From IMG/VR virus record IMGVR_UViG_3300013902_000267: a DNA stretch of 64,000 nt; one strand, written 5' to 3'. The translations under genes were made by a program, and so were the position numbers. The stretch comes from a virus. Taxonomy: Duplodnaviria > Heunggongvirae > Uroviricota > Caudoviricetes. The notes beneath the pieces were generated by a model. That model saw only the letters and a program-made list of their open reading frames with translations, searched no databases and was not told where the DNA came from. This document shows positions 2,852 through 60,137 of the stretch, piece by piece; within the stretch, counting starts at the first letter, position 1, and each line of letters starts with the position of its first letter.

Positions 2852-3491
2852 TAAACCAACATTAGTTGTTCCAAAAGGCAGACTATATAAAGGAATTAAA
2901 CATATGTTTAATTTATGTAATATTGATATGCCTGATGAGAATACTAGACAATATTATTTCCCTGATTGGAGTGATGATTGTGCATTATTTATAGCAAAAC
3001 CTAAAGCAATACCAGAATTAATTGCAAGTAAATTCTGTGAATTCAGTATGTGCGGATATGATATTATAAAGAATAGTGAATATGAAAATGATATAGAGCT
3101 CATTAAACACACAGGACTAAATAGAGTAAAAGTATGTTTAGCTTCACGATATAATATTGATGAATTGTGTCATATGAATAAACCAGTTATTTGTGCCACA
3201 GAATTTGATGTGTTAGCAAATCATTATTTTACAAAATTAGGAATTCCACATTATATATTAAATACAGCAGGTTCAACAGAAGGATATATTGATATTGGTG
3301 CAGATTGTATTATTGATGTTGTAGAAACAGGGAAAACACTTAAAGAAAATAATATTAATATATTAGATACACTGATTGATACTGATACATGTATATTTGA
3401 ACATGCATCATTAATGGATGCAATGTTACCATCAAATATACAAATAATTTATGATCAATGGATTAATAAGACATGGGAAACGAGAATGTAA
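2838..3491 (+). CDS. hisG: ATP phosphoribosyltransferase (HisG short form)-like
   Basis: N-terminal LVVPKGRL and C-terminal IDIGADCIIDVVETGKTLKENNI match HisG signature regions; length 217 aa. Confidence 0.6.
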   Translation: MIMNNKPTLVVPKGRLYKGIKHMFNLCNIDMPDENTRQYYFPDWSDDCALFIAKPKAIPELIASKFCEFSMCGYDIIKNSEYENDIELIKHTGLNRVKVCLASRYNIDELCHMNKPVICATEFDVLANHYFTKLGIPHYILNTAGSTEGYIDIGADCIIDVVETGKTLKENNINILDTLIDTDTCIFEHASLMDAMLPSNIQIIYDQWINKTWETRM

Positions 3492-3934
3492 AATATATAG
3501 TAGAATTTGATGGTAATGATGGCACAGGAAAAACTTATACGATAAAAGTATTATCAAAAGTTTTTTCTAACTGTATTTTTATAGATAGAGGATTATTCAG
3601 TAAAGCAACATTGCTATCAGACGAAAATGATGAAATGTATAAGTATATTGATGATAATATTGATATGAATAGAATTTATATTATATTGGATGATTATCCA
3701 GAACATTGTCAAATGCTTATAAAAAGAAGAGGAGATTCTATTGAAGAGAAATATCATACAATAGAAGATTTAGAGTATTATCGTAAACAATTTACAAACT
3801 TATATGGTTATTGTTGTAAAAAGAATTATGATAATGTTTATTTAGTTACACGATTATTACCAGATCATGTTCAGGTAATGATTGATATTATTAAGAAATT
3901 TACTAATTTTAATAAGGAAAATAATAATGAGTAA
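3473..3934 (+). CDS. P-loop nucleotide kinase (dNMP/thymidylate kinase-like)
   Basis: VEFDGNDGTGKTY resembles the ExxDGxGKsT P-loop of dTMP kinase-type enzymes. Confidence 0.5.
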   Translation: MGNENVKYIVEFDGNDGTGKTYTIKVLSKVFSNCIFIDRGLFSKATLLSDENDEMYKYIDDNIDMNRIYIILDDYPEHCQMLIKRRGDSIEEKYHTIEDLEYYRKQFTNLYGYCCKKNYDNVYLVTRLLPDHVQVMIDIIKKFTNFNKENNNE

Positions 3935-4577
3935 AATAATTATTGGTACCAGTAATCCAGGTAAGATTAGAGAAATTGCATCTATTCTTTCACCATTAGG
4001 ATATGAGATTGAACCGCATGCATTGGATGTTGATGAAACAGGAAAGACTATTAAAGATAATGCTATTATAAAAGCAAAAGCATATAGTAATGTATTTCCA
4101 GATACTTATGTTATTGCAGAAGATAGTGGATTAGTCGTTCCTAAATTGAATAATCTTCCTGGTCCGTATTCAGCAAGATTTCATGAAATTACAATAGATG
4201 ATAATTTGAATGTTATAAATGTTCCACATGAAGAATTTACTACGGATAAATCTGAACATGATAAACTTAATAATGAGAAGTTGTTGAAGTATATTAAAGA
4301 TATTCCGTTTGATGAGCGTGCAGCATATTTTGAAGTATGTTTTGTCATTGCAAAGAATGGAATTATTCAAGAAACATTTAGTGGTTATTCATATGGTTAT
4401 ATAGCAGATGAATTACGTGGAACAAATGGATTTGGTTATGATCCATTGTTTATTGGTGAGAATACATTTGGTAAGACATATGCAGAACTAGATTCTGCAA
4501 GAAAGAATTTAAAGAGTCACAGAAAGCAAGCATTGAAACAATTGGGCCTTTGGGTTTCACAGAATATAGAGAATTAA
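3927..4577 (+). CDS. rdgB: dITP/XTP pyrophosphatase (RdgB/HAM1 family)
   Basis: IIIGTSNPGKIREI, EDSGLVVPKLNNLPGPYSAR and GFGYDPLF motifs. Start placed at the internal ATG (MSKIIIG) of track ORF 3882-4577. Confidence 0.75.
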   Translation: MSKIIIGTSNPGKIREIASILSPLGYEIEPHALDVDETGKTIKDNAIIKAKAYSNVFPDTYVIAEDSGLVVPKLNNLPGPYSARFHEITIDDNLNVINVPHEEFTTDKSEHDKLNNEKLLKYIKDIPFDERAAYFEVCFVIAKNGIIQETFSGYSYGYIADELRGTNGFGYDPLFIGENTFGKTYAELDSARKNLKSHRKQALKQLGLWVSQNIEN

Positions 4578-4583
4578 TAATAT

Positions 4584-5075
4584 ATGAAGAAATTTATTTT
4601 TCCAGGTTCATTTGATCCTTTTACAAATGGGCATAAAGCAATAGTAGATCAGACATATAAATTGTGTGATGAATTTATTATAGCATTAGCGACAAACTTA
4701 AAGAAAGGAGAAGGACTTATTAAACGTCCTGAGCGTATTAAGTTAATTAAAGAGATTTTTAAAGATTATCCGAATGTAAAGGTAATTGATATGACAGATA
4801 CCTTGATTTCTGATTATTGTAAAAAGAATGGAGTTTCTTATATTGTTAGAGGTATCAGAAATTCGGAAGACTTTACATATGAAAAATCATTGGCAGCTAC
4901 TAACCATTATTTGGCAGGTGTAGAAACAATGTTGGTAATGGGTTTTTGCGAACCATATAATATTGATATTTCATCTACATTCGTTAGAGAATTGGTACAT
5001 TATAAATTACCTATTGGTGAGTTTGTTCCACCAGTTGTTGAACAATATATTAAAGATAATAATTTAACATGGTAA
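4584..5075 (+). CDS. coaD: phosphopantetheine adenylyltransferase (CoaD-like cytidylyltransferase fold)
   Basis: FPGSFDPFTNGH, VRGIRNSEDFTYE and ISSTFVRELV align with PPAT motifs; length 163 aa. Confidence 0.7.
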   Translation: MKKFIFPGSFDPFTNGHKAIVDQTYKLCDEFIIALATNLKKGEGLIKRPERIKLIKEIFKDYPNVKVIDMTDTLISDYCKKNGVSYIVRGIRNSEDFTYEKSLAATNHYLAGVETMLVMGFCEPYNIDISSTFVRELVHYKLPIGEFVPPVVEQYIKDNNLTW

Positions 5076-5938
5076 ATAAGATTCAAGAAGAAGATTTAAA
5101 AGCAGTTGAGTATTGTAAAACTGTATTATATCCTAAATGGAATATCAAAGATTTGTATTCTATAGATTTTGATACATTTAGAAAAATGCCGTTGGTTGTA
5201 GAAGGTGAAAGTAAAGAGATACGTGCATTGGATGATGATTATTGTATCATTTATTTTAAACCTACAATTTATTCATTTACATATAATAGAACTGGTATTG
5301 TAGAAGGAAGTAATATTCCACGTGTTCATGTAAGTAAAGTATTGTGTGAGTTACTTAAAGAAAATGGTATTAAACATGCATATCTAGATTATGGTGATGA
5401 ATTTGTATTAGCACGCATAATTAAAGATACACCTAATATTGAAGTTGTTGTAAAAGCAAATCATACAGGTACAAGTAAACATAGATATTTTGGTATGGGT
5501 AAATCACATGTAAGAATGTCACATCCATATTATTCGGGAATGAAAATTAAAGACATGGAACCATATCCAGCACCTATTGTAAGATTTGATTGGCGAAATC
5601 CATTTTGGGAACCAAATACACATAAGATGTTAGCTGATGAAGTTATGTGCGATGATCAAGCAGATTATTATATTGATGTTAAGAAAGCAAAGAAAACTGC
5701 AGCACTAACATTCAGTGTATTAAGTGATTTTCTTGCAAGTAAAGATATTGTTATTTATGATTTGTGTTTGTTTATATCAGAAGATGGTGAAACAGTATAT
5801 GGAGAAATTTCACCAGATTGTGGAAGATATAGACATTATGATTTAGGAAGTCTTGATAAGGATGTATGGCGTGCAGGAGGTTCATCAGATCAGGTATTGG
5901 AGAAGTGGAATTTACTGTATAAAATGATTACACAATAA
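5069..5938 (+). CDS. SAICAR synthetase (PurC)-like ATP-grasp-type ligase
   Basis: EGESKEIR near the N-terminus and GEISPDCGRYRH resemble the PurC GKxK and (D/E)xxPDxxR motifs; weak, made by eye. Confidence 0.45.
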   Translation: MVNKIQEEDLKAVEYCKTVLYPKWNIKDLYSIDFDTFRKMPLVVEGESKEIRALDDDYCIIYFKPTIYSFTYNRTGIVEGSNIPRVHVSKVLCELLKENGIKHAYLDYGDEFVLARIIKDTPNIEVVVKANHTGTSKHRYFGMGKSHVRMSHPYYSGMKIKDMEPYPAPIVRFDWRNPFWEPNTHKMLADEVMCDDQADYYIDVKKAKKTAALTFSVLSDFLASKDIVIYDLCLFISEDGETVYGEISPDCGRYRHYDLGSLDKDVWRAGGSSDQVLEKWNLLYKMITQ

Positions 5939-5940
5939 TT

Positions 5941-6177
5941 ATGAGAAAATACGAATGTGAGATTGAAGATTATCATGGACATTTCTTTCACCATCGGTTT
6001 GAAGCAAACGATGATAATGAAGCGTTGGATAAAGCAAATGACCATGGTTATAGATATTATGCTAATGATGATACTTTATATTATGTAGAAGGAGATTATG
6101 TTGATTATAGTAATATAAGTACAGATCATTATAAAGAGAATATAAAGAAGTACCATCAAATATGGACTTCAATTTAA
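5941..6177 (+). CDS. hypothetical protein
   Basis: Track ORF of 78 aa. Confidence 0.5.
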   Translation: MRKYECEIEDYHGHFFHHRFEANDDNEALDKANDHGYRYYANDDTLYYVEGDYVDYSNISTDHYKENIKKYHQIWTSI

Positions 6178-6189
6178 ATAGTATATTTA

Positions 6190-6225
6190 AAAGTCACTAA
6201 AATAAAAACTTTAGTGACTTTTTCT
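6190..6225 (+). terminator. rho-independent terminator
   Basis: AAAGTCACTAAA / TTTAGTGACTTT 12-bp hairpin followed by a T run. Confidence 0.6.
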
Positions 6226-6263
6226 ATTATTATATATGAATTATAATTTAAACTATAAGATAA

Positions 6264-6647
6264 ATGAATTTAATTACAAATATAAAGAAATCATACAAAC
6301 ATATACCATATACATTTAAACATTGGAAGATGGTATTGAAATTAGAGAAGAAATATATAGGCTATTATAAATATCCTTTTCATGATTTAGATAAATTGTT
6401 CATGTATATATTCTTCCCTTATTTAGGAACAAAGATAATTCAGAAAATTCATACAAAGTTTGCTAATCATCATTTACGTAAATATAAGAAACATATGAAT
6501 TTTGATGAAGCTATTCTTGATTGGGAATCTGCAAGGTTTACAAAACCTGATAAACCATTGGATGCGTGGGATACATATCAAAAATATTTTACGGAATTTT
6601 CAAATGAACTTTTACCTATATTTGAAAAATTTAACTTGAAACATTAA
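6264..6647 (+). CDS. hypothetical protein
   Basis: Track ORF of 127 aa. Confidence 0.5.
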   Translation: MNLITNIKKSYKHIPYTFKHWKMVLKLEKKYIGYYKYPFHDLDKLFMYIFFPYLGTKIIQKIHTKFANHHLRKYKKHMNFDEAILDWESARFTKPDKPLDAWDTYQKYFTEFSNELLPIFEKFNLKH

Positions 6648-6869
6648 AGACTTTATTTATATACGTTTATATAAAATACATAATGATTTTGTTTTAGAAG
6701 AACATTTATAAAAACTGTTTTAATAATTAGTGTAAAAGTGAGCACACAGAAAAAGAGAATTATGATAATTTCTGTAGAGCATGGATCAATACCAGCATTA
6801 TATAATGTACAGTTTATAGCAACGAATGTTCGAAATTTAAATTAACTATATGTCTAACATTCTTAATTT

Positions 6870-6939
6870 TTATTATTGGTAATAAGTGGCAAAACATGCT
6901 AGGAATAGTAAGTTATCGGTTCGAACCCGATATAATAAA
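6870..6939 (+). other. tRNA-like fragment (T arm plus acceptor only)
   Basis: ATCGG-TTCGAAC-CCGAT T arm and TTATTAT/ATAATAA acceptor pairing are present, but no acceptable D or anticodon arm could be folded. Confidence 0.25.
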
Positions 6940-7154
6940 GATAGAAAATGGATGATAGTTAATGATGCTAGATATAACGCTTATTATAGAAGTATTATAG
7001 GATTTGATTGAAGTGTGGATGTTTATTATACCTGTTCTATTTTTTAATAAAACAAATGTCCCTATAGATTGAAACATGGATTGAGATGAATATAATATGA
7101 TGTAATTTTAAGTTTGTTATATTTAGCATTAATTTTTTAATAAGAATTATTAAT

Positions 7155-7598
7155 ATGTATATGTTACGATTACAAGATTTACCAGATGGTGCAATAGTTC
7201 AATTATACTATAGGTCTTACGAAGAAGGATATGGACGTAGTAAACCAATGTTTAGAACATATATTATATCATTTAATGATAATACTATAATTTTTTCAAA
7301 TGTAGAATCTAAATACGAAGGTAATTTTAGTTTTTATTTAAATCAAACAGCACAATATATACATTTTGATCCAACAGACATAAATAATATTAATAATTTT
7401 GGATTTGATAAAAACTATATTATTGTATATGGAATTTATACATTTGATGATTCTAATAATAAAGTAAAAATGCCATATTCAATGAAAGGCAAGTATAAAA
7501 TGAACATATACAATACAAAATGTATATATCAAGAAGATATATCAAAAATTGCAGGGGATGAAATACAAGCTTACAATAGACGATACAAATATTATTAA
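7155..7598 (+). CDS. hypothetical protein
   Basis: Track ORF of 147 aa. Confidence 0.45.
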   Translation: MYMLRLQDLPDGAIVQLYYRSYEEGYGRSKPMFRTYIISFNDNTIIFSNVESKYEGNFSFYLNQTAQYIHFDPTDINNINNFGFDKNYIIVYGIYTFDDSNNKVKMPYSMKGKYKMNIYNTKCIYQEDISKIAGDEIQAYNRRYKYY

Positions 7599-52834: not shown

Positions 52835-53368
52835 TTAAGAATTTAAATAATTATGAAATGAACCATCATCAGAATCTCCAATAAGATTGTTCAATACATG
52901 CCAATACTCAAGATAACGCTTTGCTTTCTCCATATCCTGTGTTTCTTTCTCCTTATGGTCAGATCTCCAAATATACTTAAATGAATTCAACTTACAGAAA
53001 TCCATTGTTGCTTGTTTTCCAAATGTCTGAAGCATAGCTTCTATACATTGTAAGCCATTACCACCAGCGCCATAATGATTTGGATGTTCAACAACATTCA
53101 AATTCTGTGTACTAAAAATAGGATTTAATTTTGTCTTATGTAATTGTAAATGTGCAGGTTCATCCTTAAATACAATCTTCTCATAATTCAACGGTTCTCT
53201 ATTCTATTCAGCTACATTATCACTAATAGGTTCACCACATTTCTCGTCATTATCTGTTGCAACTTCATCGGTTCTATTAGAAACAAATACAATATCTTTA
53301 TCATCCTTTGTACGTGTAGGTTCACCATATACAGGTTCCTATGTACGAGTTTCCTTATTATAACTCAT
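52835..53368 (-). CDS. DUF3310-like phage protein (2 in-frame TAG)
   Basis: HPNHYGAGGNGLQCIEAM...FCKLNSFKYIWRSDHK...MEKAKRYL pattern. ATG 53368 is in frame with track ORF 52835-53191. Confidence 0.6.
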
Positions 53369-54147: not shown

Positions 54148-54264
54148 ATTATTTTCTAATTAAAATTTTACTTTTTATTTATAGTATATTAAATCAATAA
54201 AGTTTATATATTAAAATAAAAAATGGATAGATAGTTAAACGAAAAAACTATCTATCCATCATAA

Positions 54265-55302
54265 TTATGCTTGATACGAATACTTGTCAAACAATGATTC
54301 AATATTAGAGGGATGCACAGCATTTATGCCGATTTCATTGCATTTTTTCAATGTATCATGGAAATCATCTATAAGACATACATCCTTAACATTCCACTTC
54401 ATTTTATGAGCAAACTGCTCAATAAAAACGTGCTTATAATTTTTATTTCCGACAAACATTCGGTTCTCAACAGGAATCTCTGGGAAATATTTATCAAGCC
54501 ATTCATTCTTCTCATTCCACGCTATTGAATTAGCACATGCAGTCACAATATAAACATTCTTCATGTCATAATGTTTCTTAACAAAATCAATGATATGTTT
54601 AACAGGCTTCAAATTTTTAAATAGTTCGCTACTTACAAAATCTGAATTTCCGTTAATATCAAGTTTTGCCTTGCCATAACAAGCTAATGTACCATCCATG
54701 TCAAGAAGTAAATACTTATTGGTAAAATAATCAACGCGAATGAATTCATCTACCAATGGGATGTACTTATTCTTACATGCTTCAATACGTAAATTTTTCT
54801 TATAAATATCTTCAATTGGAACTTTACGAGTTCTTCCTTGAAGTCTATTTATACAAACTTCTACAGGAGTATCAAAGAATATACAAGTAATCTTATCTAC
54901 ATTTTTATTTCTTAAATAATCTATAATACTAAGATTATAATGATTATTAATTCCACCGCCGTCAAGAATAACATTACAATTAATCTTTGAACTATCTGCA
55001 ATAGCAAAAATTATTTTTCGTGTTATTTGAACCGACTCTTCATGAACAACTTCCGGATGTTCATCAGTATAACCTTTTAACAATGGTTTAATTTCATCAG
55101 CAGAAATTACTATTGTTTCATTTATACAAAGATTATCTTCAATTGTCTGAATAATTTTATCTAAATTACATTCATCAAATGGTTTATCTAAAATAGATGT
55201 TAACCATTCAATGAGATGCAAAATATTTGGATAATTCTCTTGAAGATATGTACTTTTACCAGATGCAGGCAAACCGAGGAAGTACGAGAACTTACTGATC
55301 AT
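54265..55302 (-). CDS. polynucleotide 5'-kinase / 3'-phosphatase (T4 Pnk-like)
   Basis: N-terminal P-loop GLPASGKST, GRTRKVPIEDIYKKN (compare T4 KRGTKAVPIDVL), and a C-terminal HAD domain LLLDMDGTLA ... IDDF. Confidence 0.7.
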   Translation of the reverse strand: MISKFSYFLGLPASGKSTYLQENYPNILHLIEWLTSILDKPFDECNLDKIIQTIEDNLCINETIVISADEIKPLLKGYTDEHPEVVHEESVQITRKIIFAIADSSKINCNVILDGGGINNHYNLSIIDYLRNKNVDKITCIFFDTPVEVCINRLQGRTRKVPIEDIYKKNLRIEACKNKYIPLVDEFIRVDYFTNKYLLLDMDGTLACYGKAKLDINGNSDFVSSELFKNLKPVKHIIDFVKKHYDMKNVYIVTACANSIAWNEKNEWLDKYFPEIPVENRMFVGNKNYKHVFIEQFAHKMKWNVKDVCLIDDFHDTLKKCNEIGINAVHPSNIESLFDKYSYQA

Positions 55303-55327
55303 AACTAAAATATAATTTAATTTTTAA

Positions 55328-56911
55328 TTAGTCAACAGTTCCATCAAGAAGTTTATGAACTGCATCTTGACGAGTCTTTCGGATTTCAGCAAGTGTAAAC
55401 TCTCTTACTAACTTACCATCTTCAAAAACAGTCTTCAATTCATTCTTATCTGATGCTTCCTCTTCAGGCGTTACACGATCAACTGGTACATACTTACCAT
55501 TACCATCTTTTACAACCATAAGAAGTCCACGATGTGATTTCTTTGGCATACCGCATACTGTTTTAGGATCCTTATAAATTTCTATAGGTTTGCCATTAAC
55601 TTTACACCATGTAGACTTACAGGCTATGCCTAAAGAATCTCTGGATCGTACATTATAAGTAAAGCTTCCTATACCTTCAATAAGGTTAGTTGCTGCGAAA
55701 CCCTTATCTTCAAGTTGAGAATATGTATCCTTTTGGCGTTTCATATTAATTGAGTCTCCATAAAGAAGTCCAATATGTGGATCAAGAATTTTATATCCTT
55801 TTTCATTAAATGTTCCACCGAACGTATTCCAAAGAAATTCATAAGAACCCATCTTTACAAATGGATCTTCTGCTTCCGGATCACCACAAATAATTTTAAC
55901 AGGATCACCACTATCAGGACGAATTACTACACGCCCATTACGAGACATAATTTGTTCTTTATACTTAGGAACAATCTTTGTCAAGAAATACCAATAATCA
56001 TAACCATCTGCAACAATTGAAATAATACCATCTGGAAATTCATCAAGCATATTCTTAAAATAAACTTCATCATTTGGCTTACCTGTTTCATCTGTTGCAT
56101 TAGAGCACTCAATAGAATGTTCAGTAGCTGGAACAGTTGCAGCTATCAATTCTTTTTTAGGATCTGCATTATAATAATACTCAATCATCTTAATTGCTGG
56201 AACTGTTTCAGAACCACAAAAAGAAGTAAGATGTGCCATACCAGAAACAATAGATGCTTCAAATGAACTCATTCCTCTCATAGAGAAATCATGACATAGA
56301 AATGCAAGATTAGACATATCGTTAGGATTATAAAAACCAGTTTTCATAGCATGTCTAACAAGTTCACGTTTAAATACATCAGCTGTTGTTGCAGAAGTAA
56401 TTGGAAGCCAAAGGACATTTGAAGTCAAAGACTCCAAATAATTTGTGAGCCAAGCAAAATCAGGATGTGTATTTGTGATTGTTAAAATAGGGCATCCGAT
56501 TGGACAATATGAACCTTCAGGAAGTGCCTTAATACGAATAGGAAGATAACCAAGTTTATGCAATGCAATAATATGATCAACCCCTACTTTCTTTGCAACT
56601 GCTTCTCCTAGAAATGTAGTTGTCAAATCTGTATAAGTTTTTCGTACAGTATCTTCATCAAGATTAAAGAAATAATTATTAAATGTATTAATAAGATACT
56701 TCTTAATAAAATACTGAATACCAAACACAACTGCTCCCTCTGTAGCTTCCGGAAAATATTTATTACTACGAGGAGTAAAGTTACTGAAAAGTTGCGTCAT
56801 TCCCTTAGGGTACATACAGTGATGACCAAGCTTGTAGCCATCTGTCATAAGCATTGCATTAAGAAGTATGTCTTCTACCAATACATGCTGTGAATCTTTT
56901 ACGTTTGTCAT
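55328..56911 (-). CDS. nadV: nicotinamide phosphoribosyltransferase (NAMPT/NadV)
   Basis: LMTDGYKLGHHCMYPKG, VIRPDSGDP and LLYGDSIN motifs; 527 aa. Confidence 0.85.
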   Translation of the reverse strand: MTNVKDSQHVLVEDILLNAMLMTDGYKLGHHCMYPKGMTQLFSNFTPRSNKYFPEATEGAVVFGIQYFIKKYLINTFNNYFFNLDEDTVRKTYTDLTTTFLGEAVAKKVGVDHIIALHKLGYLPIRIKALPEGSYCPIGCPILTITNTHPDFAWLTNYLESLTSNVLWLPITSATTADVFKRELVRHAMKTGFYNPNDMSNLAFLCHDFSMRGMSSFEASIVSGMAHLTSFCGSETVPAIKMIEYYYNADPKKELIAATVPATEHSIECSNATDETGKPNDEVYFKNMLDEFPDGIISIVADGYDYWYFLTKIVPKYKEQIMSRNGRVVIRPDSGDPVKIICGDPEAEDPFVKMGSYEFLWNTFGGTFNEKGYKILDPHIGLLYGDSINMKRQKDTYSQLEDKGFAATNLIEGIGSFTYNVRSRDSLGIACKSTWCKVNGKPIEIYKDPKTVCGMPKKSHRGLLMVVKDGNGKYVPVDRVTPEEEASDKNELKTVFEDGKLVREFTLAEIRKTRQDAVHKLLDGTVD

Positions 56912-57106
56912 AAAATAATTTGTTTAAATTTTAATTTGATTACAATAATAATTTGTTTGTTTAATTATCTTGTAATCATTATTTATATATATTATTAATT
57001 AAATTGTTTATAAAATTCATATTAAAAAAATAACATCCTATTTTCACAAACAAGATGTTAATAATTCAAAGACATATTTATTTGAAAATTAAGTTGCGAA
57101 ATTAAT

Positions 57107-59147: not shown

Positions 59148-60137
59148 CTATGTTTCCTCATCAGCTTTTAATTTTGGATATGCAGCTCTAAGTATCTGTA
59201 ATACACGTGTTTCTGTCATTCCATGTTCTTCTGCAACTTGCCATGTATTCTTTTCACCACGTCCATTAATACCATAGCAATCACATACAATTTCACCATC
59301 TCTTTCACCAAGAACTCTCTTTACATTATCTTCAAGTTCTCTTTCAAGATCAGCGTTATTAAGATTACTATCAGGGTCTTTAAATGTCCTATTAGCTGTT
59401 ACATCACCTAATGTTGTTTTAGAATCATCATCATCCCCGTATGATTTATCCAAACTATTTGCACGTGTATTTGCTTCCATTGTTTGTGCAAATGTTTCAT
59501 ATTTCAAATCTGGATGTTTCTTTACGAGAACATTATAAATATCATCAATATCAGGTTCATAACCATTCTTATTATATAATTGATCCTTGATACGAGCGGC
59601 TTCACGAGCAATACTACCCATATTACGGGGAACTGCCATATGTCCACCTACCTCATCAACAGCAGTCATAATTTCTCTACGAATATACCAAATAGCATAA
59701 GAAACAAAACGTACATCTTTACCTGGCAAACTTGGATCATATGTATCTGCTGCTTGCATAAGTCCTATATTTCCATATTGAATCATATCTTCCTTTGGTA
59801 TATTAATATTTTTATACTTATTGACAACAGAAATAACAAATGGAAGATTTGCGGACACCAACTTATTCTTTGCCTTTTCAATTTCTCTCTTATTATCAGA
59901 ATGTTGAATAATATCAGCAAGTTTCACTTCATCTGCATGTGATAATTGTTTTTTCTTATTAATAGCATGTAAATATGCAATAGTAGACTTTGCTGTATTT
60001 TCATCCTGTGTAATAGCAAAATCATCATGCAAATCCATATGCATTCCATTATTAGCTTCATTGAGTTTCTTTCTAATAGTCTTAGAAACATTTCTCATGA
60101 TACTTTCATACAATGTCTTCTTTTCATTTAACTTCAT
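59148..60137 (-). CDS. sigma-70 family RNA polymerase sigma factor
   Basis: Region 2 LPFVISVVNKYKN...YGNIGLMQAADTYDP...FVSYAIWYIRREI and region 4 WQVAEEHGMTETRVLQILRAAYPKL. The N-terminus carries the shared leader motif. Confidence 0.8.
   Translation of the reverse strand: MKLNEKKTLYESIMRNVSKTIRKKLNEANNGMHMDLHDDFAITQDENTAKSTIAYLHAINKKKQLSHADEVKLADIIQHSDNKREIEKAKNKLVSANLPFVISVVNKYKNINIPKEDMIQYGNIGLMQAADTYDPSLPGKDVRFVSYAIWYIRREIMTAVDEVGGHMAVPRNMGSIAREAARIKDQLYNKNGYEPDIDDIYNVLVKKHPDLKYETFAQTMEANTRANSLDKSYGDDDDSKTTLGDVTANRTFKDPDSNLNNADLERELEDNVKRVLGERDGEIVCDCYGINGRGEKNTWQVAEEHGMTETRVLQILRAAYPKLKADEET

What the first reader, a model, noticed from the sequence alone, without database searches (positions are those of the whole stretch)
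55328..56911. Phage-encoded NAMPT: an NAD+ salvage gene consistent with countering NAD-depleting host immunity, but no obvious NMNAT partner nearby
The 527-aa ORF has clear NAMPT motifs (TDGYKLGHH, RPDSGDP). Phage NAMPT paired with an NMN adenylyltransferase is known to rebuild NAD+ after depletion by host defence systems. Here the adjacent gene is the Pnk-like enzyme, not an NMNAT. The only adenylyltransferase-fold protein in the window (4584-5075) looks like CoaD/PPAT. The second step is therefore encoded elsewhere, supplied by the host, or carried out by a divergent enzyme.
Basis: partly seen in the sequence, partly recalled or inferred. Interest (0 to 1): 0.5.

Follow-up and report, generated by a model that had tools for sequence, protein, structure and literature searches.

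The report
Split NARP1 NAD-rebuilding system in megaphage
The "NAMPT" gene of this Prevotella megaphage (Lak-B7) is most likely a Namat, which rebuilds NAD+ from ADP-ribose with a Prs-like partner (Adps) rather than an NMNAT; that partner lies 223 kb away, and the neighbouring "Pnk-like" gene turns out to be a recurrent, undescribed member of such operons.

Summary
The ORF is real: 527 aa, with both NAMPT domains and both motifs. The window is Prevotella megaphage Lak-B7 (MK250026.1), which reads TAG as Gln.

The "missing NMNAT" puzzle comes from assigning the wrong subfamily. The protein scores 459 bits against solved SPbetaL1 Namat but about 206 against human NAMPT, and is 29% identical to a T4-like phage Nampt. 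In 68 of 71 relatives a Prs-like Adps lies within 3.6 kb; none has an NMNAT within 10 kb.

Lak-B7 encodes an Adps-like protein 223 kb away, preceded by a small HAD-like gene. In the closest non-Lak relatives (about 75% identity), Namat, kinase-HAD, small HAD and Adps form one four-gene operon. The two Lak loci are therefore halves of a split NARP1-type operon.

The window's "Pnk-like" neighbour has a T4 Pnk-like fold. All 8 sampled homologs (64-34% identity) cluster with both Namat and Adps, so it is an apparently unreported NARP1 accessory.

The genome also holds a NadR-like NMNAT/NR kinase next to PnuC (NARP3-type), 162 kb away. ORF 4584-5075 is a true CoaD/PPAT. One clamp residue is non-aromatic (V421). 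No biochemistry was done.

The parts
55328..56911 (-). Namat-clade NAMPT-family enzyme, 527 aa (predicted nicotinamide ADP-ribose transferase). Clamp helix is G415-S-F417-T-Y419-N-V421-R-S-R-D425. Clamp loop is P47-R-S-N-K51-Y52-F53.
   Evidence: Pfam and NCBIfam matches. phrog_448 at 3e-176. PDB 9w5x/9w5w (SPbetaL1 Namat) 459 bits versus human NAMPT about 206 bits. 55-57% identical to crAss-like Namats and 75-77% to L029, L103 and L104, all of which sit in Adps operons; 29% to the T4-like Nampt of PMBT1.
54265..55302 (-). Kinase-HAD fusion, 345 aa: N-terminal P-loop kinase (GLPASGKST) and C-terminal HAD phosphatase (DMDGT). It starts 26 nt after the Namat stop codon. Predicted NARP1 accessory enzyme; substrate unknown.
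   Evidence: Pfam NT5C 1.7e-7 and a weak AAA_33 match. AF2 model with pLDDT 93.4. Foldseek best hit T4 Pnk 2ia5 at 1.6e-9; kinase half versus C. thermocellum Pnkp kinase, target-normalised TM-score 0.74. 133 homologs found. 8 of 8 sampled homologs cluster with both Namat and Adps. Same adjacency in Lak-A1, Lak-C1 and L029.
54216..54260 (-). Terminator-like hairpin (15-bp stem, 9-nt loop) followed by a U-run, directly after the kinase-HAD stop codon.
   Evidence: RNA fold dG -19.2 kcal/mol, z = -6.2 against shuffles. Sequence read. The consensus scanner missed it because its loop limit is 8 nt.
57022..57069 (-). Terminator-like hairpin plus U-run after the upstream 181-aa gene. It marks the 5' boundary of a probable two-gene Namat / kinase-HAD transcription unit.
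   Evidence: RNA fold dG -15.2 kcal/mol, z = -5.1. Sequence read.

Best explanation
ORF 55328-56911 encodes a Namat, the second enzyme of NAD+ reconstitution pathway 1 (NARP1).

Proposed mechanism. When a host NADase effector cleaves NAD+ into ADP-ribose (ADPR) and nicotinamide, the phage Adps pyrophosphorylates ADPR with ATP to give ADPR-PP. Adps is at Lak-B7 genome 419,730-420,599, outside the window. Namat then joins ADPR-PP to nicotinamide, which regenerates NAD+ in two steps without any NMNAT.

Gene arrangement. In Lak megaphages the ancestral four-gene operon (Namat, kinase-HAD, small HAD, Adps) has been split into two pairs about 223 kb apart. One pair is Namat plus kinase-HAD, in the window. 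The other is small HAD plus Adps.

Accessory enzymes. The kinase-HAD and small HAD proteins are probably 'feeder' or conditioning enzymes acting on phosphorylated ADPR/NAD(P) derivatives. This is by analogy with the known NARP1 add-ons Adpp and RyDEP.

Second route. A NadR-like/PnuC pair elsewhere in the genome provides an independent NARP3-type route. It could also adenylate any NMN that the Namat makes from PRPP.

Shown here: family and clade placement, genome content, synteny in relatives, and fold. Inferred: every enzymatic activity, the substrate preference, and the counter-defence role.
For: (1) Clade. phmmer against PDB gives 459 bits to 9w5x/9w5w. That chain has GSFTYQYNTRD with F392, Y396 and R40 exactly as PMC12774641 describes for SPbetaL1 Namat. 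Human, mouse and rat NAMPT give about 206 bits and Xanthomonas-type Nampt 190 bits. Identity to the T4-like PMBT1 Nampt is 29%.

(2) Context of relatives. The best annotated phage hits (46-47% identity) lie immediately downstream of a 'ribose-phosphate pyrophosphokinase'. Of 71 non-Lak IMG/VR relatives, 68 have an Adps within 3.6 kb or less. None of the 78 loci has NadD, NadR or PnuC within 10 kb.

(3) Partner present in the genome. The Lak-B7 Adps-like ORF matches phrog_619 at 8.4e-56 over its full length. It fails all canonical Prs models (best 74.7 bits against a cutoff of 296; TIGR01251 70.5 against 113), as known Adps proteins do. In alignment it lacks the Prs C-terminal alpha11-alpha12 module, has RMDRV instead of RQDRR, keeps the catalytic Lys and the DD..D residues, and carries the Adps-type aromatics (FNEAF; DDLCDGGGTFCW against Prs DDMIDTGGTLCK) (features from PMC13586617).

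(4) Rosetta-stone fusion. phrog_12872 (547 positions) matches the Lak Adps at its N-terminal end and the Lak Namat at its C-terminal end.

(5) Synteny. crAss-like Bacteroides phages have Namat, small HAD and Adps in one operon. Each of the three is the best match to its Lak counterpart (600, 120 and 247 bits). L029 and L103 (about 75% identity) have Namat, kinase-HAD, small HAD and Adps as one contiguous operon.

(6) Conservation. Namat plus kinase-HAD, small HAD plus Adps, and NadR are present in Lak clades A, B and C.

(7) Clamp loop. PRSNKYF has a Lys followed by Tyr, the Bas63-type pattern of PMC12774641.

(8) None of the NAD-related genes has an in-frame TAG. They can therefore be translated before recoding sets in, which fits early expression (Lak paper).
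Against: Clamp-helix position 7, which stacks on adenine in SPbetaL1 Namat (Y396), is Val in Lak-B7. It is Met in Lak-A1 and Lak-C1 and Leu in L029. ADPR-PP preference could therefore be weaker or altered.

Namat and Adps are unlinked in Lak genomes, so co-regulation is not evident.

Namats keep substantial PRPP-dependent NMN-forming activity in vitro (PMC12774641). Since the genome has a NadR-type NMNAT, an NMN route cannot be excluded.

No NAD-depleting defence system is documented here for the Prevotella host.

Nothing was assayed.
Confidence: 0.65

Rival explanations
1. NARP2-like route. The enzyme works mainly as a true Nampt (nicotinamide + PRPP gives NMN). The Prs-like protein supplies PRPP. 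The NadR-like enzyme at genome 31.8-33.0 kb adenylates NMN to NAD+.
For: A NadR-type NMNAT is encoded in every Lak genome. Clamp position 7 is non-aromatic. Namats retain roughly half of human Nampt's NMN-forming activity in vitro (PMC12774641). The original Lak paper annotated a 'ribose-5P to PRPP' gene.
Against: The protein is far closer to Namat than to any Nampt (459 versus about 206 bits; 29% identity to a T4-like phage Nampt). The Prs-like protein fails every canonical Prs model and has Adps-type features. None of 78 related loci has an NMNAT within 10 kb, while nearly all have an Adps. NadR sits beside PnuC, a self-sufficient NR-based module.
Confidence: 0.18
2. General metabolic boosting. 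The genes raise or maintain NAD+ for the very large replication demand of a 550-kb phage (for example NAD-dependent enzymes), independently of host NADase immunity.
For: Jumbo phages frequently carry NAD synthesis genes, and these have been interpreted this way (PMC11662467). The Lak genome holds several nucleotide and cofactor genes (CoaD, Ham1, PnuC, NadR). No host NADase system was identified here.
Against: An ADPR-recycling route only has substrate when NAD+ is being cleaved (Osterman preprint). Experimental NARP1, NARP1-AP and RyDEP data all point to counter-defence. The operon-type accessory phosphatases suggest handling of immune-derived ADPR species.
Confidence: 0.12
3. The kinase-HAD neighbour is an ordinary RNA/DNA end-healing Pnk (tRNA repair) that merely lies next to Namat and has no role in NAD+ reconstitution.
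For: The best structural matches are T4 Pnk and bacterial Pnkp. It matches PHROG 'polynucleotide kinase' families. One distant locus (L107) has an RNA ligase about 4.5 kb away.
Against: 8 of 8 sampled homologs across 64-34% identity, plus Lak-A1, Lak-C1, L029 and five Lak-like IMG/VR loci, are clustered with Namat. All 8 sampled loci and L029 also carry an Adps in the cluster, and in L029 and L110 the reading frames overlap. Sequence identity to T4 Pnk is only 16%. The HAD half is closest to small-molecule 5'(3')-nucleotidases.
Confidence: 0.15

Closest known systems
NARP1 (Adps + Namat; Osterman et al., bioRxiv 10.1101/2024.02.11.579819; Namat structure PMC12774641; Adps structure PMC13586617)
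   Same: A Namat-clade NAMPT-family enzyme and a Prs-like Adps are encoded in the same genome. The nearest relatives have them in one operon. The catalytic core is conserved, the clamp loop and most of the clamp helix are Namat-like, and the Adps lacks the Prs regulatory C-terminus.
   Different: In Lak the two core genes are 223 kb apart. Clamp position 7 is Val, Met or Leu instead of Tyr or Phe. The ancestral operon carries two extra genes, a kinase-HAD fusion and a small HAD.
NARP1-AP (NARP1 plus Macro-domain ADPR-1''-phosphatase Adpp; bioRxiv 10.64898/2026.01.28.702374) and RyDEP (cADPR glycosidase inside NARP1 loci; bioRxiv 10.64898/2026.05.28.727677)
   Same: These are precedents for extra enzymes embedded in NARP1 operons that convert modified ADPR species into linear ADPR. 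Phosphatase chemistry is plausible for both HAD domains found here.
   Different: The Lak and crAss accessories are HAD-fold, and one of them is fused to a P-loop kinase. They are not Macro or RyR domains. Their substrates are unknown, and none of the NARP papers I searched or read describes them.
NARP2 (Nampt + Nmnat, Vibrio phage KVP40 type)
   Same: NAMPT-superfamily enzyme. An NMNAT activity (NadR-like) is present somewhere in the genome.
   Different: The Lak protein is only 29% identical to a T4-like phage Nampt and has GSFTYNV where Nampt has GGGLLQE. The NMNAT is NadR-type and paired with PnuC. No relative has an NMNAT nearby.
NARP3 (NadR-like + PnuC, Escherichia phage Bas30; PMC13464706)
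   Same: Lak-B7 genome 31,849-33,655 has an HTH-less NadR-like NMNAT/RNK immediately followed by PnuC.
   Different: It lies outside the window, 162 kb from the finding. It is a separate module that co-exists with the NARP1-type genes.
T4 polynucleotide kinase/phosphatase (Pnk; PDB 2ia5, 1rrc)
   Same: Same two-domain order (P-loop kinase, then HAD phosphatase). It is the best whole-chain structural match.
   Different: 16% identity and a different inter-domain orientation (rmsd about 14 A over the whole chain). The gene family is tied to Namat-Adps operons, not to RNA ligase.

Membership tests
NAMPT superfamily (PF18127 + PF04095) | N-terminal NAMPT domain plus type II PRTase catalytic domain, above curated thresholds | tested here: met
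   PF18127 40.2 bits (cutoff 25). PF04095 109.2 bits (cutoff 20.8). NF006629 489.9 bits (cutoff 405).
NAMPT superfamily (PF18127 + PF04095) | Catalytic His and active-site Arg (human H247 and R311; SPbetaL1 R306) | tested here: met
   ATEHS at aa 262-266 and IRPDSGDP at aa 330-337 align with the corresponding residues of 9w5x.
Namat (NARP1 nicotinamide ADP-ribose transferase) | Closer in sequence to experimentally defined Namat than to Nampt | tested here: met
   459 bits to SPbetaL1 Namat (9w5x) versus about 206 bits to human NAMPT and 190 to bacterial Nampt. 29% identity to T4-like Nampt versus 47-57% to Adps-linked Namats.
Namat (NARP1 nicotinamide ADP-ribose transferase) | [quoted passage not shown] | tested here: inconclusive
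   Lak-B7 has GSFTYNVRSRD: correct length, F at position 3, T, Y and N, but V at position 7 and S at position 9. All 15 Namats linked to kinase-HAD are non-aromatic at position 7. A further clade of 29 Adps-adjacent homologs has a remodelled helix, so the consensus is not universal among Adps-linked enzymes.
Namat (NARP1 nicotinamide ADP-ribose transferase) | Clamp loop supplying a stacking residue (Arg at the third position, or Lys/Tyr followed by a stacking residue) | tested here: met
   PRSNKYF has K51 followed by Y52, the Bas63-type pattern. This is sequence-level only; no ligand model was made.
Namat (NARP1 nicotinamide ADP-ribose transferase) | Adps homolog encoded in the same phage genome (Osterman's criterion for the Namat tree) | tested here: met
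   Adps-like ORF at genome 419,730-420,599. It is conserved in all 15 Lak genomes.
Namat (NARP1 nicotinamide ADP-ribose transferase) | Adps and Namat adjacent in one operon | tested here: not met
   The two genes are 223 kb apart in Lak-B7 and also unlinked in Lak-A1 and Lak-C1. They are adjacent in the nearest non-Lak relatives L029, L103-L106 and the crAss-like phages.
Namat (NARP1 nicotinamide ADP-ribose transferase) | Preference for ADPR-PP over PRPP; NAD+ formed directly | not testable with these tools
   This needs an enzyme assay.
Adps (ADPR pyrophosphokinase, Prs-like) | Prs fold without the C-terminal alpha11-alpha12 module, with the catalytic Lys, the acceptor Asp residues and a remodelled PP loop with aromatic lid | tested here: met
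   Alignment A1 compared with the features reported in PMC13586617. Canonical Prs models fail. Residue mapping is by motif, not by structure.
NARP2 (KVP40-type Nampt + Nmnat) | Nampt of the KVP40/T4-like clade | tested here: not met
   29% identity and 174-176 bits to the T4-like PMBT1 Nampt. The clamp-equivalent region differs: GGGLLQEVTRD against GSFTYNVRSRD. KVP40 itself was not fetched.
NARP2 (KVP40-type Nampt + Nmnat) | Nmnat homolog in the same genome | tested here: met
   NadR-like NMNAT/RNK at genome 31,849-33,006. It is NadR-type and paired with PnuC, not the KVP40 NatV (NMNAT-Nudix) type.
NARP3 (NadR-like + PnuC) | Adjacent HTH-less NadR-like bifunctional enzyme and PnuC transporter | tested here: met
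   TIGR01526 191 bits with full-length coverage (below its curated cutoff of 341.15). PF01467 plus PF13521. PDB 6gye at 8.8e-47. PnuC TIGR01528 129.5 bits (cutoff 42.45). The genes overlap and lie on the same strand. This module is outside the window.
CoaD / PPAT (for ORF 4584-5075) | Equivalog-level match to pantetheine-phosphate adenylyltransferase rather than NMNAT | tested here: met
   TIGR01510 132.5 bits (cutoff 103.3). All NMNAT models are far below their cutoffs. 34 of 35 PDB matches are PPAT.
T4 Pnk-type kinase/phosphatase (for ORF 54265-55302) | N-terminal P-loop kinase plus C-terminal DxDGT HAD phosphatase in one chain | tested here: met
   GLPASGKST and LDMDGT motifs. AF2 pLDDT 93.4. 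Foldseek 2ia5 at E 1.6e-9.
T4 Pnk-type kinase/phosphatase (for ORF 54265-55302) | Polynucleotide 5'-kinase / 3'-phosphatase activity, and functional pairing with an RNA ligase | not tested
   Activity cannot be tested here, and RNA ligase was not searched for in Lak-B7. The family's neighbourhood is Namat plus Adps in 8 of 8 sampled loci.

The most novel reading that the evidence does not exclude
The kinase-HAD fusion (window 54265-55302) and the small HAD protein are new classes of NARP1 'feeder' enzymes. They would convert phosphorylated NAD(P)-breakdown products that Adps cannot use into linear ADPR. Candidate substrates are ADPR-1''-phosphate from RES-type effectors and 2'-phospho-ADPR from NADP+ cleavage. 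The kinase may also re-phosphorylate a product, for example NAD+ to NADP+ or a 5'-OH riboside. In this reading, the Namat subclade with a non-aromatic clamp position 7 co-evolved with the kinase-HAD to accept a modified adenosine moiety. Lak megaphages would then carry a four-enzyme extended NARP1, split over two loci, alongside a NARP3 module.
Probability: 0.3. Interest if true: 0.7.

Novelty: new variant of a known kind. Interest (0 to 1): 0.5.

Why it matters
Three points.

1. It corrects a common annotation trap. Most phage "NAMPT" genes are Namat, so the absence of an NMNAT is expected and not a puzzle. Pipelines that require Adps and Namat to be adjacent would miss split systems such as this one.

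2. It identifies a widespread kinase-HAD fusion and a small HAD protein that are consistently embedded in Namat-Adps operons of gut phages (Lak megaphages, crAss-like phages and many uncultured contigs). Two other NARP1 add-ons, Adpp and RyDEP, each turned out to reveal a new layer of the NAD+ arms race. These genes are directly testable candidates for a further layer, and may point to still-unknown NAD(P)-modifying defences in Bacteroidota.

3. It shows that a 550-kb megaphage of a dominant human and animal gut genus keeps at least two independent NAD+-restoring modules. That argues NAD+ depletion is an important defence in Prevotella.

Tried and rejected
- **CoaD as a disguised NMNAT: rejected.** ORF 4584-5075 passes the CoaD equivalog threshold and matches 34 PPAT structures, against one marginal NaMNAT hit.
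- **Kinase-HAD or small HAD as homologs of the published NARP1 phosphatase Adpp: rejected.** Adpp is a Macro-domain protein. These are HAD-fold proteins.
- **Lak Prs-like protein as a canonical PRPP synthetase: disfavoured.** Scores are far below every Prs cutoff, and the C-terminal module is missing.
- **Terminator and promoter scanner: uninformative.** It found no terminators because its loop limit is 8 nt, so I folded the two hairpins directly instead. Sigma-70-type promoter matches were fewer than in shuffles (21 against 29). The consensus may also not suit a Bacteroidota host.
- **Pfam on the small HAD protein: nothing significant for the Lak copy.** PDB phmmer gave only a weak hit to 2obb. 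It is identified through phrog_1238, the DxDxT motif and synteny only.
- **Regex extraction of the clamp motif: replaced.** It missed 33 loci, so I used an alignment-based extraction.
- **Clamp position 7 and kinase-HAD.** The link (15 of 15 non-aromatic) probably reflects shared ancestry of one clade. I did not test it with a phylogeny-aware method.
- **10-kb-bin TAG density profile: not used.** It is noisy because spurious ORFs are included. I rely only on the zero in-frame TAG count in the named genes.
- **Not done:** a formal phylogenetic tree, fetching KVP40 NadV/NatV, and searches for Macro, RyR or RNA-ligase genes in Lak-B7.
Full report
**1.

ORF 55328-56911 on the minus strand is 527 aa, from ATG to TAA. 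It matches Pfam NAMPT_N and NAPRTase, and NCBIfam NF006629 at 489.9 bits against a cutoff of 405. The two quoted motifs are at aa 23-31 and 331-337, and the catalytic-His context ATEHS is at aa 262-266.

The window is a 100% match to Prevotella phage Lak-B7 (MK250026.1, 550,702 bp, circular, unannotated). Window position x equals genome position x + 139,511. Lak phages read TAG as Gln (Devoto et al. preprint). Treating TAG as sense raises the longest ORF from 1,154 to 2,900 aa. All genome-wide searches therefore used ORFs called with TAG as sense.

**2. It is a Namat-type, not a Nampt-type, enzyme**

The NARP paper reports that about 79% of phage NAMPT-family proteins are Namat. Namat joins nicotinamide to ADPR-PP made by a Prs-like Adps (NARP1). 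A separate clade, associated with Nmnat, is true Nampt (NARP2).

- Against solved structures, the Lak protein scores 459 bits to 9w5x/9w5w. That chain's sequence has R40, F392 and Y396 exactly as published for SPbetaL1 Namat. Human, rodent and bacterial Nampt score only 190-209 bits.
- It is 47% identical to the Namats of Staphylococcus Kayvirus HYZ21 and Bacillus phage PJN02. Both of those lie directly downstream of a "ribose-phosphate pyrophosphokinase".
- It is 29% identical to the T4-like Nampt of Klebsiella phage PMBT1, which has no such neighbour.

The published Namat signature is a clamp helix G-S-X-phi-X-phi-X-phi-T-R-D, with adenine-stacking aromatics at positions 3 and 7, plus a clamp loop.

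- Lak-B7 reads GSFTYNVRSRD. The length is right and it has F417, T, Y419 and N, but V421 at position 7.
- The loop PRSNKYF has Lys followed by Tyr, as in Bas63 Namat.
- The T4-like Nampt reads GGGLLQEVTRD.

**3. The partner exists, far away**

phmmer with phage Adps sequences found one Lak-B7 ORF, at genome 419,730-420,599(+), 289 aa, scoring 2.6e-22 to PJN02 Adps.

- It matches phrog_619 over its full length (8.4e-56).
- It fails Pfam and NCBIfam PRPP-synthetase models by wide margins, as genuine Adps proteins do.
- In alignment with four Adps proteins and E. coli Prs, it lacks the C-terminal alpha11-alpha12 module, has RMDRV where Prs has RQDRR, and keeps the catalytic Lys and acceptor Asp residues.
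- It carries the aromatic residues that the Adps structure paper assigns to ADPR and ATP adenine contacts. This residue mapping is by motif only.
- phrog_12872 is a natural Adps-Namat fusion family that matches both Lak proteins.
- Adps is present in all 15 Lak genomes at 80-100% identity.

**4. Synteny in relatives joins the two Lak loci**

The nearest non-Lak Adps homologs (41-47% identity) are in crAss-like Bacteroides phages. There the order is Namat, a 143-aa HAD-like gene (DFDNT motif, phrog_1238), then Adps. Each of the three is the best match to a Lak-B7 gene. In Lak, the small HAD gene sits immediately upstream of Adps.

A scan of IMG/VR with the Lak Namat gave 78 loci, which I screened locally.

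| Group of loci | Arrangement found |
|---|---|
| 5 Lak-like loci with flanking sequence (a sixth, L026, is only 1.8 kb) | Namat + kinase-HAD; no Adps within 10 kb |
| L029 (75% identity, 84-kb contig) | Namat, kinase-HAD, small HAD, Adps as four contiguous same-strand genes |
| 68 of the other 71 loci | Adps within 3.6 kb |
| All 78 loci | No NadD, NadR or PnuC within 10 kb |

Lak-A1 and Lak-C1 show the same split as Lak-B7. The simplest reading is that an ancestral four-gene operon was broken into Namat + kinase-HAD and small HAD + Adps.

**5. The "Pnk-like" neighbour belongs to the system**

- The 345-aa protein starts 26 nt after the Namat stop codon.
- The gene pair is bracketed by two stable hairpins, each followed by a U-run (z = -5.1 and -6.2).
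- Its AF2 model (pLDDT 93.4) is most similar to T4 polynucleotide kinase/phosphatase. The kinase half also resembles Clostridium Pnkp kinase. Identity is only about 16%.
- By sequence, the HAD half is closest to 5'(3')-deoxyribonucleotidases.
- The family has at least 133 members on phage-sized contigs. I sampled eight, from 64% down to 34% identity. All eight cluster with both a Namat and an Adps, and all keep the Walker A and DMDGT motifs.

Published NARP1 add-ons are a Macro-domain ADPR-1''-phosphatase (Adpp) and a cADPR glycosidase (RyDEP). Both feed linear ADPR into the pathway. None of the NARP papers I searched or read mentions a kinase or HAD add-on. I infer an analogous conditioning role, but the substrates are unknown.

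**6. An NMNAT does exist in the genome**

phmmer with genuine E. coli NadD and NadR found a NadR-like ORF at genome 31,849-33,006.

- It matches TIGR01526 at 191 bits over its full length, below that model's curated cutoff of 341.
- It has CTP_transf_like and AAA_28 domains and no HTH.
- It matches Lactococcus NadR (6gye) at 8.8e-47.
- It is immediately followed by a bona fide PnuC (TIGR01528, 129.5 bits against a cutoff of 42.45).

This is the NARP3 architecture. It is conserved in all Lak genomes. The genome also has a weak 207-aa nucleotidyltransferase at 83.3 kb and a Nudix protein at 220.4 kb. ORF 4584-5075 is a true PPAT.

**7. Caveats**

- Clamp position 7 is non-aromatic in all 15 Namats linked to kinase-HAD (V, M, L or C). 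Among the other 77 aligned sequences it is aromatic in 43.
- A further clade of 29 Adps-adjacent homologs has a longer, remodelled helix. The published consensus is therefore not a strict requirement.
- Single clamp mutations reduced SPbetaL1 Namat activity only 1.3- to 1.7-fold.
- Namats keep PRPP-dependent activity, so an NMN route via the NadR-like enzyme cannot be excluded.
- All activities are inferred.

**8. Prior knowledge and verdict**

The Lak paper listed "ribose-5P to PRPP", "interconversion of nicotinate and nicotinamide" and pnuC, without a pathway assignment. A jumbo-phage survey treats all NAMPT homologs as NMN-forming.

The Namat itself is a new member of a known family. The split arrangement, the variant clamp and the two HAD-type accessories make this a new variant of NARP1. 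None of the NAD-related genes contains an in-frame TAG, which is compatible with expression before recoding.

Noticed in passing
L018 (Lak-A1, MK250015.1) 4078-7047; homologous to window about 55650: In Lak-A1 the Namat gene is interrupted by 1.32 kb, with exon 1 ending at ...GIG of the clamp-helix motif. The insert holds a 440-aa ORF with a GIY-YIG-like motif. It is probably an intron carrying a homing endonuclease. Lak-B7 and Lak-C1 lack it.
   Followed up: partly
L081 (IMGVR_UViG_3300049929_000026) 4966-7314: A distant Namat homolog carries an in-frame intein of about 285 aa (Cys1, a LAGLIDADG block, terminal His-Asn, Thr at +1). It is inserted between positions 3 and 4 of the same clamp-helix motif (GSF|...|TYQHVTRD). 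This site is therefore a hotspot for mobile elements.
   Followed up: partly
L019 (Lak-C1) 4057-4998; corresponds to window 55303-55327: A free-standing 313-aa LAGLIDADG-type homing endonuclease gene lies between Namat and kinase-HAD in Lak-C1. The other eight Lak-B genomes have about 935 bp extra in this interval relative to Lak-B7, probably the same element.
   Followed up: partly
Lak-B7 genome 31,849-33,655 (outside the window; L001): A NadR-like NMNAT/NR kinase without an HTH domain, directly followed by PnuC. This is a NARP3-type module co-existing with the NARP1-type genes in all 15 Lak genomes.
   Followed up: yes
Lak-B7 genome 419,239-421,294 (outside the window; L009): A small HAD-like gene (151 aa, phrog_1238, mislabelled 'phosphoheptose isomerase'), Adps and GrpE form a block conserved in Lak-A1 and Lak-C1. 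The same small HAD gene sits inside Namat-Adps operons of crAss-like Bacteroides phages and several IMG/VR contigs.
   Followed up: partly
window 3473-5938 (+): A tight run of nucleotide and cofactor genes: a P-loop protein whose DGNDGTGKT motif looks thymidylate-kinase-like (my reading; no significant family match), a Ham1/RdgB (d)ITP/XTP pyrophosphatase, CoaD, and a divergent SAICAR-synthetase-like protein. The Kongming defence is triggered by dITP made via a phage dNMP kinase (PMC12774641). A phage ITPase next to a kinase-like gene might therefore blunt that signal. This is speculative.
   Followed up: no
Lak-B7 genome 83,313-83,936(-) and 220,396-220,920(-): A 207-aa protein with a GGFKPFHDGH nucleotidyltransferase motif (weak matches to archaeal-type NMNAT and CTP_transf_like), and a 174-aa Nudix hydrolase. 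Either could touch NAD/ADPR metabolism.
   Followed up: partly
window 59148-60137 (-): A phage-encoded sigma-70-family factor: region 2 clearly matched, regions 1.2, 3 and 4 weakly.
   Followed up: no
window 52835-53191 (-): A DUF3310 protein, 118 aa, with a TTG start as called.
   Followed up: no
L107 8431-9866: In one distant kinase-HAD locus the Namat is called as two separate genes (NAMPT_N and NAPRTase parts), and a T5orf172/MUG113-type endonuclease-like gene lies on the opposite strand just upstream. This may be another mobile-element disruption of a Namat locus.
   Followed up: no
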